The position numbers and the translations under genes are program-made. Under the pieces are notes generated by a model that was not told the origin of the DNA, ran no database searches, and was given only the letters and a program-made list of their open reading frames with translations. Positions 46,682 through 54,081 of a DNA stretch of 64,000 nt are shown piece after piece. The DNA is from a virus (Duplodnaviria; Caudoviricetes), in IMG/VR virus record IMGVR_UViG_3300033067_000991, positions 1,338-65,337 of that record, one strand, 5' to 3'. Within the stretch, counting starts at the first letter, position 1. Each line of letters begins with the position of its first letter.

Positions 46682-48181
46682 TTATCCGTACAGTTTTCTG
46701 CGTGGCGCGGGTTGGTCGTCTGAATCTTCGGCTGGTGCATCAGGGAAATAGATCACTTTGTCGTCCGGGTGTTCGACCCACCAGCTGTTGCGTAGGTACA
46801 AGAGCGCTTGGGTCACGGTATCGGTGTAATCCGAAGATGGCGGGGCGCCAGAAGGAAACTGCGCAACCGACTCAATCAGTTGCTCCGCCCAGCGCCGGTC
46901 GGGCGCCCAGACTTGCCCGGCCTCCAGCATCGCCTGCACGCTGTAGGCGCGGGTGATCTTGTCCTTGTCCGGGTTGTAGGTGCGGACCCGGACGCTCGGG
47001 ATGCGCCGCAGGTCTTGTATTAGAGACTGGCCGCTGGCCTTCTTTTCGATCAAGTGGCAGTCCGGCTGTAGCTCTTTGTCCAAGTCCCGCGCCTTGCGCC
47101 GCAGGTCCGGATAGTCGATCTGGCCATGCCAGGCGCGGAGTAGCAGCAGCGCGTGCCGGGCCTCTTGCTCGTCGTACCAGACGCCCCAAGCGGTCATCGC
47201 CGAATAGCTGTTGTCGCGATAGCCCTTGTCGCTGTAGGCCGTATCCCACGATAGAAATACATGCTCGCACTTGGGTAGCGGCTTGCCCTCGGGCCAGATG
47301 CGCCACCAATCCCGCTTGAGGATGTTGCCGCCATCGACAGTGGGCGATTGCTGGTACAGCGCCGCCCAGTTGCGCGAATCGCGCCGGGCCTGCTGGATCA
47401 TGTCGGGAGTGAACCACTCCGGCCAGAGCTGTTCGCCTTTCGCCCTGCCAAGGGGGTCGTTATCGCCCGCAATCATCGGCAGCGAGACGATTTCCCATTG
47501 CTCGCCCCCGTGCCGCTGGTCTTCCAGGAGCCGCCCGGCCAGGTCGTCGACGTGCCAGCGGGTCATGATCAGGACTATCGCCCCGTGCGGCTTGAGGCGG
47601 GTCTTAAGGTCCGCTACATACCAATCCCAGGTCTTTTGTCTAACCCGCTCCGAGTCCGCGTCCTCACGGGAGCGCACCACGTCATCCAGGATCACGATAT
47701 CAGCACGGCGACCGGTTACTGAGCCGCCCACGCCCGCCGCGAAATAGCCACCACCAGCGGCTGTATCCCAGCGGCCGGCGGCCTGGCTGTCGTCTGAGAG
47801 CGTCGCGCCGGGGAATAGGCGCCCATACTCGGGTGACTTGCAGAGATTGCGCACCCGGCGACCAAAGCTCTCGGCCAGCTCCGCGGTATGTGAGGCCGCG
47901 ATGATTTGCTTGCTGGGATTGCGCCCGAGATACCACGAGGGGTAAAGCACTGAAGCATAACTCGATTTTGCTGCCCCTGGCGGCATAAAAAGCATCAAGC
48001 GCTTGATGTCGCCCCGCTCGACCGCCTCCAGCTTGTCGATGATTAGGTGGTGATGGCGGGCCGGGACAAAGCCGAGGTCAAGATATTCAGTGTACGACGC
48101 CAGCTTCCCGCGAGCTTGGCGCCTGGCTAATAGCTCCTGCGCGGCTGAGAATGGCGATGAGTTCGTCGTCTGAGAGTTCAC
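46682..48181 (-). CDS. terL: Terminase large subunit
   Basis: MPPGAAKS Walker A, GRRADIVILDD, IMTRWH.DDL, SWDTAY, DYTDTVTQAL. Confidence 0.96.
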   Translation of the reverse strand: MNSQTTNSSPFSAAQELLARRQARGKLASYTEYLDLGFVPARHHHLIIDKLEAVERGDIKRLMLFMPPGAAKSSYASVLYPSWYLGRNPSKQIIAASHTAELAESFGRRVRNLCKSPEYGRLFPGATLSDDSQAAGRWDTAAGGGYFAAGVGGSVTGRRADIVILDDVVRSREDADSERVRQKTWDWYVADLKTRLKPHGAIVLIMTRWHVDDLAGRLLEDQRHGGEQWEIVSLPMIAGDNDPLGRAKGEQLWPEWFTPDMIQQARRDSRNWAALYQQSPTVDGGNILKRDWWRIWPEGKPLPKCEHVFLSWDTAYSDKGYRDNSYSAMTAWGVWYDEQEARHALLLLRAWHGQIDYPDLRRKARDLDKELQPDCHLIEKKASGQSLIQDLRRIPSVRVRTYNPDKDKITRAYSVQAMLEAGQVWAPDRRWAEQLIESVAQFPSGAPPSSDYTDTVTQALLYLRNSWWVEHPDDKVIYFPDAPAEDSDDQPAPRRKLYG

Positions 48182-48422
48182 GGTGGTTGTAGGTGTGCGA
48201 CTCTACCTTCACATCGCGCGGCAATAGCTTGCTCACCAGTCCCAAAAAGGCGGTGGGATTTTCTCTTGCTTGTTCAACGAGATACGCTTGACCGCCGACA
48301 TCGCCAAGCGCCCCGAGAATCATTTCCTTCAGCTCTTTATGGAGCGTGTTGCCGCTCCCCTTCTGCCTCCCACCGGTTTTGGGCAGACCCTTCGGCCTAC
48401 CCGGTTGCCCAGGTCCAGCCAT
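48087..48422 (-). CDS. terS: Terminase small subunit
   Basis: KTGGRQKGS.N..LKEMILGAL; ELSDDEL. Confidence 0.85.
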   Translation of the reverse strand: MAGPGQPGRPKGLPKTGGRQKGSGNTLHKELKEMILGALGDVGGQAYLVEQARENPTAFLGLVSKLLPRDVKVESHTYNHRELSDDELIAILSRAGAISQAPSSREAGVVH

Positions 48423-48457
48423 TTTCTTTGATTTCCGTAACAGATTTCATAAAGCAC

Positions 48458-48492
48458 AAAAAAATCCCGCCGAAACAATCGCTTGGGCGGGA
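48458..48492 (-). terminator. tR'-like terminator between late promoter and terS
   Basis: Minus strand TCCCGCC-14 nt-GGCGGGA then T7. Confidence 0.75.
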
Positions 48493-48511
48493 CTCACCTA
48501 GTTTGGGAAAA

Positions 48512-48540
48512 AGCGTACAGAAATCTGTAAGTTGTGTCAA
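48512..48540 (-). promoter_or_regulatory. Late (pR'-like) sigma70 promoter
   Basis: Minus strand TTGACA-17-TACGCT pointing into the terminator and terS. Confidence 0.7.
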
Positions 48541-48583
48541 GCGTGTGCCGAAGATTTTTTCAAGCATATGGGCCAAAAAACGC

Positions 48584-48612
48584 TTGACAAGTAGGCGCAT
48601 TCCGCCTACTAT
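48584..48612 (+). promoter_or_regulatory. Strong sigma70 promoter with overlapping inverted-repeat operator
   Basis: TTGACA(48584)-17-TACTAT(48607); AGTAGGCG-cattc-CGCCTACT at 48590-48610. Confidence 0.88.
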
Positions 48613-48669
48613 ACTAACCAAGCCAGCCAATTCACGGCGAGGCGCAAACCACCGAAACGGGAGGACGAA

Positions 48670-49080
48670 ATGAACACATTCGACAAATACCCAACCCTGC
48701 AAGCCATTGCCAGCACCGGACTCGCCACGGTCCAGGCTATGCCTGCAGGTTCCTTGCGGGGCTGGCTATTTTCGCCCAGGCTGCCACATGCAGCAGACGA
48801 TTTCAAAGCTCGGGATTTTGCGGCCCGCGCAGAGCTGGAGAAGTTTCTCGCGGAGTGCGTTCGGCTGCGCGATAAGGGCGGCGACTACGACTGCCTGTTG
48901 GGCGGCTATCTTAGAAATGCAATCGCCTGCCGCGCTGAATATGGCGACGAGCCTGAAATAGTGGACTACGACGAGCCCACCCTGGCCGATACGGCTGAGT
49001 ATGTGCGGGCGCTCGAACCAGGAACGGCGGAGCTTGAGTTGCGCGGAATCTTCCGCGTTTGGTCTGAAGACCGGTCCTAA
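48670..49080 (+). CDS. Candidate anti-CRISPR/anti-defence protein 1 (136 aa, acidic)
   Basis: GGAGG SD; first gene of an aca1-terminated operon; no family recognised. Confidence 0.7.
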   Translation: MNTFDKYPTLQAIASTGLATVQAMPAGSLRGWLFSPRLPHAADDFKARDFAARAELEKFLAECVRLRDKGGDYDCLLGGYLRNAIACRAEYGDEPEIVDYDEPTLADTAEYVRALEPGTAELELRGIFRVWSEDRS

Positions 49081-49109
49081 TGCCAAGGCACAATAAGGAG
49101 GAACTTAAA

Positions 49110-49349
49110 ATGAAAACCTACACCATCACCAGCGATTTCATTACCCCCCCTATAAATCATGGGCAGACAGTCACGGTCAGCTACGGTCTAGCCGCCGATG
49201 ACGAGGCGATCATCAGGCGCACGCACGACGCCAGCGACGGCACGGTAATCTTCGAGGCGTTCGGGTATCCGCGCGGAGAACAGGACTGGGCGCCTTGGAA
49301 CGGTGAGCCTACCCTGGGCCGGAAGCTCGGGAAATGCCTGGTCGAATGA
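49110..49349 (+). CDS. Candidate anti-CRISPR/anti-defence protein 2 (79 aa)
   Basis: Start re-called after AAGGAGGAACTTAAA. Confidence 0.7.
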   Translation: MKTYTITSDFITPPINHGQTVTVSYGLAADDEAIIRRTHDASDGTVIFEAFGYPRGEQDWAPWNGEPTLGRKLGKCLVE

Positions 49350-49371
49350 CCGCCAGCAGGAGGAACCCAAA

Positions 49372-49602
49372 ATGAGCATGACAAGAGACGAAGCCATTCG
49401 TCATTTTGGCGTACGAAAGTACGCCGGAGTGACAGTCTGTGAGGCGCTTGCCCTAGCGCCATCCGCCGTCCGCAACGGGCTGCACCCAGCGGATATCACG
49501 TGGGTATCCAAATACAAGGATGTGGACTCTAACAGTGCTGTTGCGAGGCTGATGGCTCGCCATCTCGGGAATCCAGATGGCCTGATCGCCACAAGCCACT
49601 GA
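49372..49602 (+). CDS. Candidate anti-CRISPR/anti-defence protein 3 (76 aa)
   Basis: Start re-called after CAGGAGGAACCCAAA; TGATG-coupled to aca1. Confidence 0.7.
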   Translation: MSMTRDEAIRHFGVRKYAGVTVCEALALAPSAVRNGLHPADITWVSKYKDVDSNSAVARLMARHLGNPDGLIATSH

Positions 49603-49835
49603 TGACCGCCCCCGACACCCGCCACCACAACCCCGACCCCGCCTATCTCCGGGGTCTGATCGCCCGGGCCGGCCTTTCGCAACGGGAGGCGGCCCGGCGC
49701 ATCGGCGTCAGCGAGCGCGTCATGCGCCAGTATCTCGCCGACCGTGAGGCGTCTTCGGCGCTGGCGGCGCCGTATCCAGTCCAATACGCGCTGGAGCATC
49801 TAGCCCTCACTGCCCCCGCAACCCCGTCCAGATAG
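49602..49835 (+). CDS. aca1: Anti-CRISPR-associated HTH repressor, Aca1 homologue
   Basis: H.PDP.YLRGL...AG.SQR.AA...G.S.RVMR.YL and APY.VQ.ALE.LA match Pseudomonas phage Aca1 as I recall it. Confidence 0.9.
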   Translation: MTAPDTRHHNPDPAYLRGLIARAGLSQREAARRIGVSERVMRQYLADREASSALAAPYPVQYALEHLALTAPATPSR

Positions 49836-50352
49836 CGCAATCCAGCGTTGCCAGCCAGCCCCCGACATGCCGCAACACCAGGCGGTAGCGGGGGCGCCAT
49901 GTGGCGATCCACGTGGAATACTTCATGTCCACCGCTCGCGCCCGTACCGCATCCGGTACATCCCGCTCGTAGCCAGTACCCCCGCAGCGCTCACACCAGC
50001 CCCCTGCTGGGGCGTAGCGCGTACCACCGCAGTCGTGGCACGGCTCCCGGTGCAACGACTCCCACAACGCCAGCAGGGCCAGCTTACGGCACATAGGGCC
50101 ATGCTGTTGCCGGTAGTCGCGCCAGCGCTCGTGAGCGAACACCCCGGCCACTTCGACGATAGCCATGTACTGCAGCTTGTGCAGAACCGACTCATCGCCC
50201 ACGTACCGATACAGCGCCAGATATTGCGCCTCGGTCGGCAACACCGCCAGGGTGCCAGCGATTTCCGCCGGGGTCAGGTCCGGCAGTCCACCCGTCCCGC
50301 GACTGAGCGGGCAGGCTTGCGCGGTCAGCTTAGCCAGTGCGGCAGGGGTCAT
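49807..50352 (-). CDS. Late-gene antiterminator Q-like protein
   Basis: LTPAEIAGTL, C..CGG...C..CGGTG Zn finger, RARAV; last gene of the early-right operon. Confidence 0.75.
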   Translation of the reverse strand: MTPAALAKLTAQACPLSRGTGGLPDLTPAEIAGTLAVLPTEAQYLALYRYVGDESVLHKLQYMAIVEVAGVFAHERWRDYRQQHGPMCRKLALLALWESLHREPCHDCGGTRYAPAGGWCERCGGTGYERDVPDAVRARAVDMKYSTWIATWRPRYRLVLRHVGGWLATLDCAIWTGLRGQ

Positions 50353-53826: not shown

Positions 53827-53840
53827 GGCTAATCCGCTGA

Positions 53841-54072
53841 GTTTGTAGACGCTGTAGACGTTTGTAGACAAACAGCGTCTACAGCCCTAAGCCGCGACTG
53901 GCGCGGTCTACAGCGGTTTGTAGACTTGTAGACGCTTAAATAAGATTTTTCATCTATAAGTAAAATTCTTGCATAGGCGTCTACATGTCTACCATTAGCG
54001 GGAAGCCGCGCCGGTCGTGGCTGGCGACTGTAGACGCCACTGTCTACAAACGTCCACAAACCGTCTACAAAC
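53841..54072. promoter_or_regulatory. Probable replication origin: 12 GTAGAC/GTCTAC iterons around an AT-rich core
   Basis: 6 GTAGAC plus 6 GTCTAC; AT-rich tract 53936-53972; directly after the primase gene. Confidence 0.75.
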
Positions 54073-54081
54073 ACCATAGCG

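What the first reader, a model, noticed from the sequence alone, without database searches (positions are those of the whole stretch)
48584..49835. Candidate anti-CRISPR operon: three unrecognised small genes ahead of an Aca1 homologue, with an Aca1-type operator
Seen: a TTGACA-17-TACTAT promoter with the inverted repeat AGTAGGCG-cattc-CGCCTACT covering the spacer and -10. It drives ORFs of 136 aa (24 D/E vs 16 K/R), 79 aa (11 vs 7) and 76 aa, each with a strong SD, then a 77-aa HTH. The cassette is inserted against the direction of the flanking Q and terS genes. Known: Aca1 represses acr promoters through inverted repeats, and genes upstream of aca genes are enriched in Acrs. From memory, the HTH matches Aca1 motif by motif and the operator core TAGGC-N7-GCCTA has the form of the phage JBD30 Aca1 site. 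Inference: the three ORFs are anti-CRISPR or other anti-defence proteins. I could not match them to any AcrIE/IF/IC sequence I remember, so they may be new families.
Basis: partly seen in the sequence, partly recalled or inferred. Interest (0 to 1): 0.95.

Follow-up and report, generated by a model that had tools for sequence, protein, structure and literature searches.

The report
Aca1-controlled phage operon with orphan cargo
An uncultured 65-kb phage carries a textbook self-repressing anti-CRISPR-type control cassette (Aca1 repressor, its DNA operator and its RNA hairpin) driving three small proteins with almost no relatives in any database, so they are good but untested candidates for new inhibitors of bacterial immunity.

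Summary
The 77-aa HTH protein is a true Aca1 homologue: full-length match to the solved JBD30 Aca1 structures, E about 3e-19, 54-58% identity. The promoter, the operator between -35 and -10, and the 5' leader are homologous to the acr promoter of Pseudomonas phages JBD24/JBD30. The leader also holds the Aca1-binding RNA hairpin described in 2026 (PMC13551039). The window's Aca1 belongs to a minority subclass (Q and L in place of JBD30 Y48 and R59). Its operator differs from JBD30's at half-site position 7, a base that Y48 helps read (GGCGC instead of GGCAC). Across independent loci, Q48 pairs with G at that position in 3 of 3 and Y48 in 0 of 14. The three cargo ORFs look like real genes but are orphans. 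ORF1 found only itself among 1.84 billion representatives, and ORF3 only itself in a word-indexed search. ORF2 has one relative (56% identity, dN/dS 0.24). No Pfam, PHROG, NCBIfam, PADLOC or PDB match was found, and the folds were unusable. Control is therefore a known kind. The anti-defence role of the cargo rests only on association with Aca1. The host is unknown. This scan has met the same kind of cassette many times on other DNA. Interest is moderate, not 0.95.

The parts
48584..48612 (+). Sigma-70 promoter of the cassette: -35 TTGACA, 17-nt spacer, -10 TACTAT
   Evidence: 10 of 12 matches. It aligns position for position with the JBD24 acr promoter.
48590..48610 (.). Single 21-bp Aca1 operator (8-nt perfect arms, 5-nt centre) with GGCGC-type half-sites. 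It covers the spacer and the first four bases of the -10.
   Evidence: It has the same frame as JBD30 IR2 (PMC8633003), and the same motif lies upstream of most related aca1 loci.
48622..48643 (+). Leader RNA hairpin of the Aca1 type: 3-bp lower stem, 1-nt and 2-nt bulges, 3-bp upper stem, 7-nt loop. It starts just after the predicted transcription start and ends 26 nt before the ORF1 ATG.
   Evidence: It is the minimum-energy fold, as in 13 of 16 related leaders. It matches the motif described in PMC13551039.
48670..49080 (+). ORF1: 136 aa, acidic (net -8), predicted all-helical. An orphan cargo gene.
   Evidence: It found only itself among 5.8 billion clusters and in an exhaustive HMMER read of 1.84 billion representatives. 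There is no family or PDB match and the AF2 model has pLDDT 40.
49110..49349 (+). ORF2: 79 aa, acidic. A cargo gene with one known relative.
   Evidence: Its relative P0003 is 56% identical with dN/dS 0.24. There is no family or PDB match, even with a profile.
49372..49602 (+). ORF3: 76 aa, five short predicted helices. An orphan cargo gene.
   Evidence: only itself. There is no family or PDB match and the AF2 model has pLDDT 44.
49602..49835 (+). aca1 homologue: 77 aa, of the Q43/L54 subclass. Its start codon overlaps the ORF3 stop codon.
49807..50352 (-). Context: a Zn-finger, weakly Q-like late-regulator candidate. Its 3' end overlaps the aca1 3' end by 29 bp in convergent orientation.
   Evidence: phrog_127, E 1.4e-4, partial match.
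48451..48495 (-). Context: an intrinsic terminator on the - strand (GC stem plus a run of seven U), lying between the cassette and the terS-position gene.
   Evidence: z -2.5; 2 of 200 shuffles fold as well; I7.
48563..48590 (-). Context: a weak divergent promoter-like site (9 of 12) whose -35 overlaps the -35 of the cassette promoter. It is a possible late promoter.
   Evidence: This is a consensus match only.
48087..48422 (-). Context: a 111-aa gene in the small-terminase position, just upstream of the large terminase (46682-48181).

Best explanation
This is an Aca1-autorepressed accessory operon of the acr-aca1 type, set in reverse orientation between a phage's late-regulator candidate and its packaging genes. 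Proposed mechanism: on DNA entry, the near-consensus promoter fires without any phage factor and produces a burst of ORF1, ORF2, ORF3 and Aca1, with aca1 translationally coupled to ORF3. Aca1 accumulates and, as a dimer, binds the single palindromic operator that covers the spacer and the -10, shutting the promoter off. It probably also binds the hairpin at the 5' end of the mRNA. The three cargo proteins are early-acting inhibitors of host immunity, most likely of a CRISPR-Cas system of the unknown host, and belong to families not yet described. Shown here: the promoter, operator and hairpin anatomy; Aca1 homology; homology of the whole regulatory module to JBD-type acr promoters; the match between this Aca1 subclass and its operator variant; and the coding status and orphan status of the cargo. 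Inferred: binding, repression, expression timing and the anti-defence activity of the cargo. I put the regulatory part at about 0.9 and 'at least one cargo gene is an immune inhibitor' at about 0.6. Specifically anti-CRISPR is about 0.4.
For: Aca1 homology is full length: E 2.5e-19 and 3.7e-19 to 7VJN and 7C0G, phrog_3865 at E 5e-26, and 131 Pseudomonas phage records at 54-58% identity, many next to annotated AcrIF or AcrIE genes. The promoter, operator and leader align with the JBD24 acr promoter: about 45 of 66 columns are identical from the -35 to the end of the hairpin, and the operator lies in the same place as IR2, the site responsible for repression in JBD30 (PMC8633003). The residues that contact the DNA backbone (R22, S31, Q32, R33, S42, Y49) and the two guanines (R44, R47) are conserved. 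Y48 and R59 are replaced by Q and L. Half-site position 7, which Y48 helps read, is G in both halves instead of A, and position 8, which R59 reads, differs in one half. Across independent loci, Q48 goes with G at position 7 in 3 of 3 and Y48 in 0 of 14 (Fisher p 0.0015, not corrected for phylogeny). The leader hairpin is the minimum-energy fold, recurs in 13 of 16 related leaders with a compensated upper stem in L004, and fits the Aca1-bound RNA motif reported for 207 operons. Cargo genes beside Aca1 relatives are small, hypervariable and mostly unannotated, as in acr loci. ORF1-3 have strong ribosome-binding sites, short gaps and a coding-type GC1/2/3 pattern, and ORF2 is under purifying selection. 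No defence-system model matches them.
Against: There is no functional evidence for the cargo. None of the three resembles any known Acr or anti-defence protein by sequence, and no usable structure could be predicted. Aca-regulated operons also carry genes that are not Acrs, and more than half of Aca1/Aca2-regulated genes are unassigned (PMC13551039). The host, and therefore whether it has CRISPR-Cas at all, is unknown. ORF1 and ORF3 have no relatives, so their coding status rests on signals within this one sequence. ORF3's five short helices leave open a DNA-binding role rather than an inhibitor role. Aca1 binding to this operator variant has not been measured, and R59, which is needed for binding in JBD30 Aca1, is absent.
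Confidence: 0.6

Rival explanations
1. The control module is an Aca1 cassette, but the cargo has nothing to do with host immunity. The three genes would be other accessory ('moron') functions that need a short early pulse, such as host takeover, superinfection exclusion against other phages, or regulators of the phage's own development.
For: The 2026 survey lists many Aca-regulated genes that are not Acrs and many with no assignable function. One related locus (L012) carries an RNA-polymerase alpha C-terminal-domain-like protein as its Aca1-regulated cargo, which looks more like transcription takeover than immune inhibition. No similarity ties ORF1-3 to any anti-defence family.
Against: Wherever they have been tested, genes directly upstream of aca1 in Pseudomonas phages have repeatedly proved to be Acrs; this is established knowledge from guilt-by-association screens, and annotated examples appear. 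The small size, the acidity of ORF1 and ORF2, the hypervariable cargo across related loci and the lack of any family are the usual signature of immune inhibitors.
Confidence: 0.3
2. ORF3 is not an inhibitor but a second small DNA-binding (HTH-like) regulator, so the operon has two cargo genes and two regulators.
For: The low-confidence model gives five short helices in 76 residues, the usual count for an XRE or Cro-type fold. ORF3 is slightly basic, unlike ORF1 and ORF2, and is translationally coupled to aca1.
Against: No HTH model in Pfam, PHROGs or NCBIfam matches it, even at E up to 1. The model is unreliable at pLDDT 44. No second palindrome suited to another regulator lies in the promoter region. 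Some true Acrs are themselves helical bundles or HTH proteins, so this fold would not exclude an inhibitor role.
Confidence: 0.15
3. One or more of the orphan ORFs (ORF1 or ORF3) is not a real gene, and the cassette is a partly decayed remnant.
For: Neither ORF has a single relative in billions of proteins, and both fold predictions are poor.
Against: Each has a strong ribosome-binding site at the right distance, the genes are packed with gaps of 29 and 22 nt followed by a 1-nt overlap, and GC1/2/3 follows the pattern of the phage's known genes. The regulatory module in front is intact. Orphan status is normal for Acr-type genes.
Confidence: 0.05

Closest known systems
acrIF1-aca1 operon of Pseudomonas phage JBD30 and the acrIE/acrIF-aca1 operon of JBD24 (Aca1 structures 7C0G, 7VJM/7VJN, 7FA3)
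   Same: Both have a strong sigma-70 promoter with the Aca1 palindrome between -35 and -10 and a homologous leader with the two-tier hairpin. Small cargo genes come first and aca1 comes last, overlapping the preceding gene. Aca1 is 54-58% identical over its full length.
   Different: The window has one operator and no counterpart of IR1. Half-sites are GGCGC or GGCGG instead of GGCAC, with Q and L in place of Y48 and R59. It carries three cargo genes, none related to any AcrIE or AcrIF. It sits in reverse orientation between a Q-like gene and the packaging genes of an unrelated 65-kb phage, not among the head genes of a Mu-like phage.
The catalogue of Aca1-regulated operons from RefSeq and IMG/VR in Feussner et al., NAR 2026 (PMC13551039)
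   Same: The definition is the same: a DNA motif in the promoter, a transcription start about 10 nt downstream, a roughly 20-nt RNA hairpin ending about 20 nt before the first start codon, and cargo that is often unannotated. About 60% of those operons have a single DNA motif, as here.
   Different: I could not check whether this contig is in their set, because no supplements are held. The paper, as far as I read it, does not describe the Q48/L59 subclass with a G at half-site position 7.
Cassettes on IMG/VR contigs L004/L005 and metagenome contig L042 (Aca1 relatives with Q at position 48)
   Same: They share the Aca1 subclass and a GGCGC half-site in an operator that overlaps the -10. L004 also has a leader hairpin.
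   Different: Their cargo is unrelated and shorter (a single 44-aa ORF in L004). The upper stem of the L004 hairpin has compensatory changes. L042 has only one GGCGC half-site and no recognisable hairpin.

Membership tests
Aca1 (anti-CRISPR-associated protein 1) | Full-length sequence homology to JBD30 Aca1 | tested here: met
   E 2.5e-19 and 3.7e-19 over residues 3-73 with no gaps; phrog_3865 at E 5e-26; 131 phage records at 54-58% identity. The next best PDB hit is unrelated, at E 4.5e-5.
Aca1 (anti-CRISPR-associated protein 1) | Conserved residues for backbone contacts and guanine reading (R22, S31, Q32, R33, S42, R44, V45, R47, Y49 in JBD30 numbering) | tested here: met
   All nine are identical in the window's protein (R17, S26, Q27, R28, S37, R39, V40, R42, Y44), by the alignments. 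Their roles come from PMC8633003.
Aca1 (anti-CRISPR-associated protein 1) | Y48 and R59, which read half-site positions 6-7 and 8 (R59 was reported as strictly conserved and needed for binding) | tested here: not met
   The window has Q43 and L54 instead. The same pair occurs in L004, L005 and L006, and Q48 also in L042. It goes with a changed base at position 7, so I read this as a specificity subclass and not as loss of function.
Aca1 (anti-CRISPR-associated protein 1) | Palindromic operator of the form TAGGC-N7-GCCTA inside the operon's own promoter | tested here: met
   It lies in the same position as JBD IR2.
Aca1 (anti-CRISPR-associated protein 1) | Two-tier RNA hairpin at the start of the 5' UTR | tested here: met
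   compared with the description in PMC13551039.
Aca1 (anti-CRISPR-associated protein 1) | Dimer binds the operator and represses the promoter | not testable with these tools
   This needs EMSA or ITC and a reporter assay.
Anti-CRISPR (Acr) proteins, any described family | Sequence or profile similarity to a described Acr | tested here: not met
   ORF1-3 have no match in Pfam, PHROGs, NCBIfam or PDB, or by tblastn against 50,697 phage records. dbAPIS and Anti-CRISPRdb were not available.
Anti-CRISPR (Acr) proteins, any described family | Encoded directly upstream of an aca gene in the same operon | tested here: met
   one promoter, short gaps and coupling to aca1.
Anti-CRISPR (Acr) proteins, any described family | Inhibits a CRISPR-Cas system | not testable with these tools
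   The host and its CRISPR types are unknown, and this needs plaque or transformation assays.
Known anti-phage defence systems (PADLOC) | Match to a defence-system protein model | tested here: not met
   no match for ORF1-3.

The most novel reading that the evidence does not exclude
At least one of the three orphan proteins founds a new family of anti-CRISPR or other immune inhibitors from an uncultured host. In addition, the Q48/L59 Aca1 subclass is a natural change of specificity, reading G instead of A at half-site position 7. That would give Aca1-operator pairs that do not cross-talk with the JBD type and a simple recognition rule that can be tested by swapping two residues and one base pair.
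Probability: 0.35. Interest if true: 0.6.

Novelty: new member of a known kind. Interest (0 to 1): 0.4.

Why it matters
Aca1-linked genes have been the most productive route to new anti-CRISPR families. Here the regulatory module is complete and unambiguous, which makes the three cargo genes well-founded candidates even though they have essentially no relatives. If any of them is active, it would be a new inhibitor family, usable as a CRISPR off-switch or as a probe of a defence system. The protein-operator covariation also offers a small, cleanly testable example of how an HTH repressor family changes specificity. Against this, hundreds of such unannotated Aca-regulated genes are already catalogued, and the unknown host makes it hard to choose targets.

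Tried and rejected
- Fold searches were not run. The AF2 models of ORF1 (pLDDT 39.9) and ORF3 (43.6) are too poor, and the Atlas models of ORF2 (0.42) and ORF1 (0.57) gave no match above chance.
- A two-sequence profile of ORF2 against the PDB found nothing.
- ORF1-3 were searched by tblastn against 40-odd fetched loci carrying Aca1 or terminase relatives. Only the known L001 relative of ORF2 appeared.
- Host inference failed. The large terminase is at most 42% identical to any cultured phage, and those phages have very mixed hosts. The three genomes with Aca1 relatives carry no related prophage. One of 400 sampled class-level genomes has a portal at 37% identity.
- The empty-slot test was not possible. 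No close relatives of the phage were found through the terS-position gene or the large terminase (at most 41% identity).
- Rfam has no family for the leader; it gave only chance-level hits.
- A second exact match to the leader-hairpin pattern at 54005-54025 (-) was considered as a second Aca1 target. I set it aside because there is no operator beside it, it is not the favoured fold, and it lies in an iteron array.
- No operator was found upstream of the Q48/L59 relative L006, or of L007 and L011. Their promoters may lie beyond larger upstream genes.
- Complex prediction was not used. With no known host target, any pairing would have been a blind guess.
- The supplements of PMC13551039 are not held, so I could not check whether this contig has already been listed.

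Full report
**Observation**

- TTGACA (48584-48589), a 17-nt spacer and TACTAT (48607-48612) form the best sigma-70-type match on the + strand of the region, at 10 of 12.
- A perfect inverted repeat, with arms at 48590-48597 and 48603-48610 and 5 nt between, covers the spacer and the first four bases of the -10.
- It is the only exact TAGGC-N7-GCCTA site in the window. Looser matches are no more frequent than chance.
- Four + strand ORFs follow: 48670-49080 (136 aa), 49110-49349 (79 aa), 49372-49602 (76 aa) and 49602-49835 (77 aa).
- ORF1-3 each have a GGAGG-type ribosome-binding site. The fourth gene has none, but its ATG overlaps the ORF3 stop codon.

**The fourth gene is Aca1**

It matches the solved JBD30 Aca1 chains over residues 3-73 without a gap (E 2.5e-19 for 7VJN, 3.7e-19 for 7C0G), and the next PDB hit is unrelated. 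It also matches phrog_3865 end to end (E 5e-26). By tblastn it hits 131 phage records, 130 of them Pseudomonas phages, at 54-58% identity. In many of those records the neighbouring gene is annotated as an AcrIF or AcrIE (JBD24 layout). Generic HTH families in Pfam score below their cut-offs, as expected for so small a protein.

**The regulatory module is homologous, not just similar in form**

Aligned with the JBD24 acr promoter, the window matches in about 45 of 66 columns from the -35 through the end of the leader hairpin. The palindrome lies in the same place as IR2, the site responsible for repression in JBD30 (PMC8633003). The 21-bp site shares the TAGGC-N7-GCCTA frame with IR2 and, by my count, 15 of 21 bases. 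The window has no counterpart of the upstream IR1. According to PMC13551039, about 60% of acr-aca1 operons likewise have a single DNA motif.

**Protein and operator co-vary**

The crystal-structure paper assigns these contacts:
- R47 reads G4 and R44 reads G5.
- Y48 reads C6 and, together with V45, the thymine methyl of the A7:T pair.
- R59 reads the guanine of the C8:G pair.
- R22, S31, Q32, R33, S42 and Y49 hold the backbone.

In the window's protein all of these are identical except Y48, which is Q43, and R59, which is L54. The operator differs from IR2 at position 7 in both halves (G instead of A), and at position 8 in one half (half-sites GGCGC and GGCGG against GGCAC).

I fetched 19 loci with Aca1 relatives from the IMG/VR and genome collections and 11 closer ones from metagenomes. 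After collapsing duplicates, every locus with Y at position 48 and a recognisable operator has A at position 7 (14 loci). All three with Q there (the window, L004/L005 and L042) have G in at least one half-site. Fisher's p is 0.0015, not corrected for relatedness. Two loci with other residues at that position (K in L017, S in L033) have other half-sites again.

I read the window's repeat as the cognate site of a distinct Aca1 specificity subclass. This is inference; binding was not measured.

**The leader hairpin**

A 2026 survey (PMC13551039) reports the following for 207 acr-aca1 operons from RefSeq and IMG/VR:
- The transcription start lies about 10 nt after the DNA motif.
- A roughly 20-nt hairpin with a 3-bp lower stem, up to two unpaired bases and a co-varying 3-bp upper stem follows directly, and ends about 20 nt before the start codon.
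- JBD30 Aca1 binds this RNA with a KD of about 61 nM.

The window has this motif at 48622-48643, ending 26 nt before the ORF1 ATG. It is the minimum-energy fold of the leader. The same fold is the minimum-energy structure in 13 of 16 related leaders, and L004 keeps it through compensatory changes in the upper stem. Rfam has no model for it.

**The cargo**

ORF1-3 have ribosome-binding sites, gaps of 29 and 22 nt followed by a 1-nt overlap, and a GC1/2/3 pattern like that of the phage's known genes. At 57-60% GC they are less GC-rich than aca1 (71%), which suggests the cargo and the regulator have separate histories.

None matches anything in Pfam, PHROGs, NCBIfam, PADLOC, the PDB sequences or the six-frame translation of 50,697 phage records.

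| ORF | Relatives found | Basis |
|---|---|---|
| ORF1 | only itself | word-indexed search of 5.8 billion clusters; exhaustive HMMER read of 1.84 billion representatives |
| ORF2 | one, P0003 (84 aa, 56% identical) | word-indexed search; |
| ORF3 | only itself | word-indexed search only, which is less sensitive, so 'no relatives' is a weaker statement |

- ORF2 and P0003 share a conserved C-terminal motif, and dN/dS is 0.24, so ORF2 is a real gene under selection.
- The relative lies on a 3.6-kb Logan contig. It is the first gene of a small unit that diverges from an XRE-type HTH gene, and it is followed by another unknown gene and by a gene cut off at the contig end.
- None of the three ORFs recurs beside any other Aca1 relative.
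- The cargo of those relatives is itself small (44-307 aa), almost all mutually unrelated and unannotated. That is the pattern known for acr loci.
- Structure prediction without alignments failed (pLDDT 40 and 44), and the language-model atlas gave nothing above chance.
- Only secondary-structure hints remain: ORF1 is all-helical and ORF3 has five short helices.

**Context**

The window is most of a 65,337-bp IMG/VR virus record rated about 90% complete. Its genes run on the - strand: primase, Dda-like helicase, RusA, a weakly Q-like Zn-finger protein (49807-50352), then the cassette on the opposite strand, then a gene in the small-terminase position, the large terminase and the portal.

Between the cassette and the terS-position gene, the - strand carries two features:
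- A weak promoter-like site whose -35 overlaps the -35 of the cassette promoter.
- A strong intrinsic terminator at about 48451-48495.

This resembles the lambdoid late promoter and terminator that a Q protein reads through.

The 3' end of aca1 overlaps the 3' end of the Q-like gene by 29 bp, and no intrinsic terminator follows aca1. Unrepressed transcription of the cassette would therefore run antisense into the late-regulator gene. That gives a plausible reason why tight Aca1 control would matter here. This point is inference, and it is the subject of the sister note e1-5901423.

**Mechanism proposed**

1. The promoter fires early, without any phage factor.
2. The three cargo proteins and Aca1 are made together.
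3. The Aca1 dimer then occupies the operator over the -10, and probably also the leader hairpin, and shuts expression down.
4. The cargo acts on the host in the first minutes of infection.

The regulatory steps follow from homology to a system that has been characterised experimentally. The role of the cargo follows only from association.

**Comparison and novelty**

In architecture, regulator, operator and RNA motif, this is a member of the known acr-aca1 class, and this scan has already met the class many times on other DNA. Three things are new:
- Three cargo proteins with essentially no relatives.
- Membership of a minority Aca1 subclass whose two changed reading residues go with a changed half-site.
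- The reverse placement next to the late control region of a phage unrelated to the Pseudomonas Mu-like phages.

I could not name the host, which limits the choice of CRISPR types to test.

**Verdict**

Control is of a known kind, and the cargo's function is untested. I rate it a new member of a known kind, with interest about 0.4.

Noticed in passing
window 53840-54080: The gap between the primase and helicase genes holds 11 of the window's 18 TGTAGAC copies, on both strands, around an AT-rich core (chance gives 2.6 per window). This is a candidate iteron-type replication origin. It also contains a second exact match to the Aca1 leader-hairpin pattern at 54005-54025 (-). That match has no operator beside it and is not the favoured fold.
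   Followed up: partly
window 48451-48590, - strand: A strong intrinsic terminator (48451-48495, z -2.5) follows a weak promoter-like site (48563-48590) just ahead of the terS-position gene. This is a lambdoid late-promoter and terminator layout. The -35 hexamers of this site and of the cassette promoter overlap back to back, so the two promoters may compete for RNA polymerase.
   Followed up: partly
window 49807-49835: aca1 and the Q-like gene converge and overlap by 29 bp, and no intrinsic terminator follows aca1. Transcription of the cassette would therefore run antisense into the late-regulator candidate.
   Followed up: partly
window 48670-49835: aca1 is 71% GC, but the three cargo genes are 57-60% (the phage is about 62%). 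The cassette looks mosaic, with regulator and cargo of different origin.
   Followed up: partly
L012:2394-3029: In one related locus, the Aca1-regulated cargo is a 212-aa protein with an RNA polymerase alpha C-terminal domain (Pfam E 8e-8). It may be a transcription-takeover factor under Aca1 control.
   Followed up: no
L001:2717-3608: The only relative of ORF2 is the first gene of a small unit that diverges from an XRE-type HTH gene. A 70-aa unknown and a gene cut by the contig end follow it. A palindrome (GGAAT-N5-ATTCC) lies in the shared intergenic region.
   Followed up: partly
L004:2414-2455 (and its duplicate L005): The leader hairpin keeps its shape with a different, 4-bp upper stem (compensatory changes). 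This is the closest relative of the window's Aca1, and it has the same GGCGC operator.
   Followed up: partly
L017:1977-3423: This locus has an Aca1 relative of about 143 aa, with K and L at the two variable reading positions. Its operator half-site is different (TAGGACT), it has no leader hairpin, and its cargo gene is 307 aa. It may be a further specificity class.
   Followed up: no
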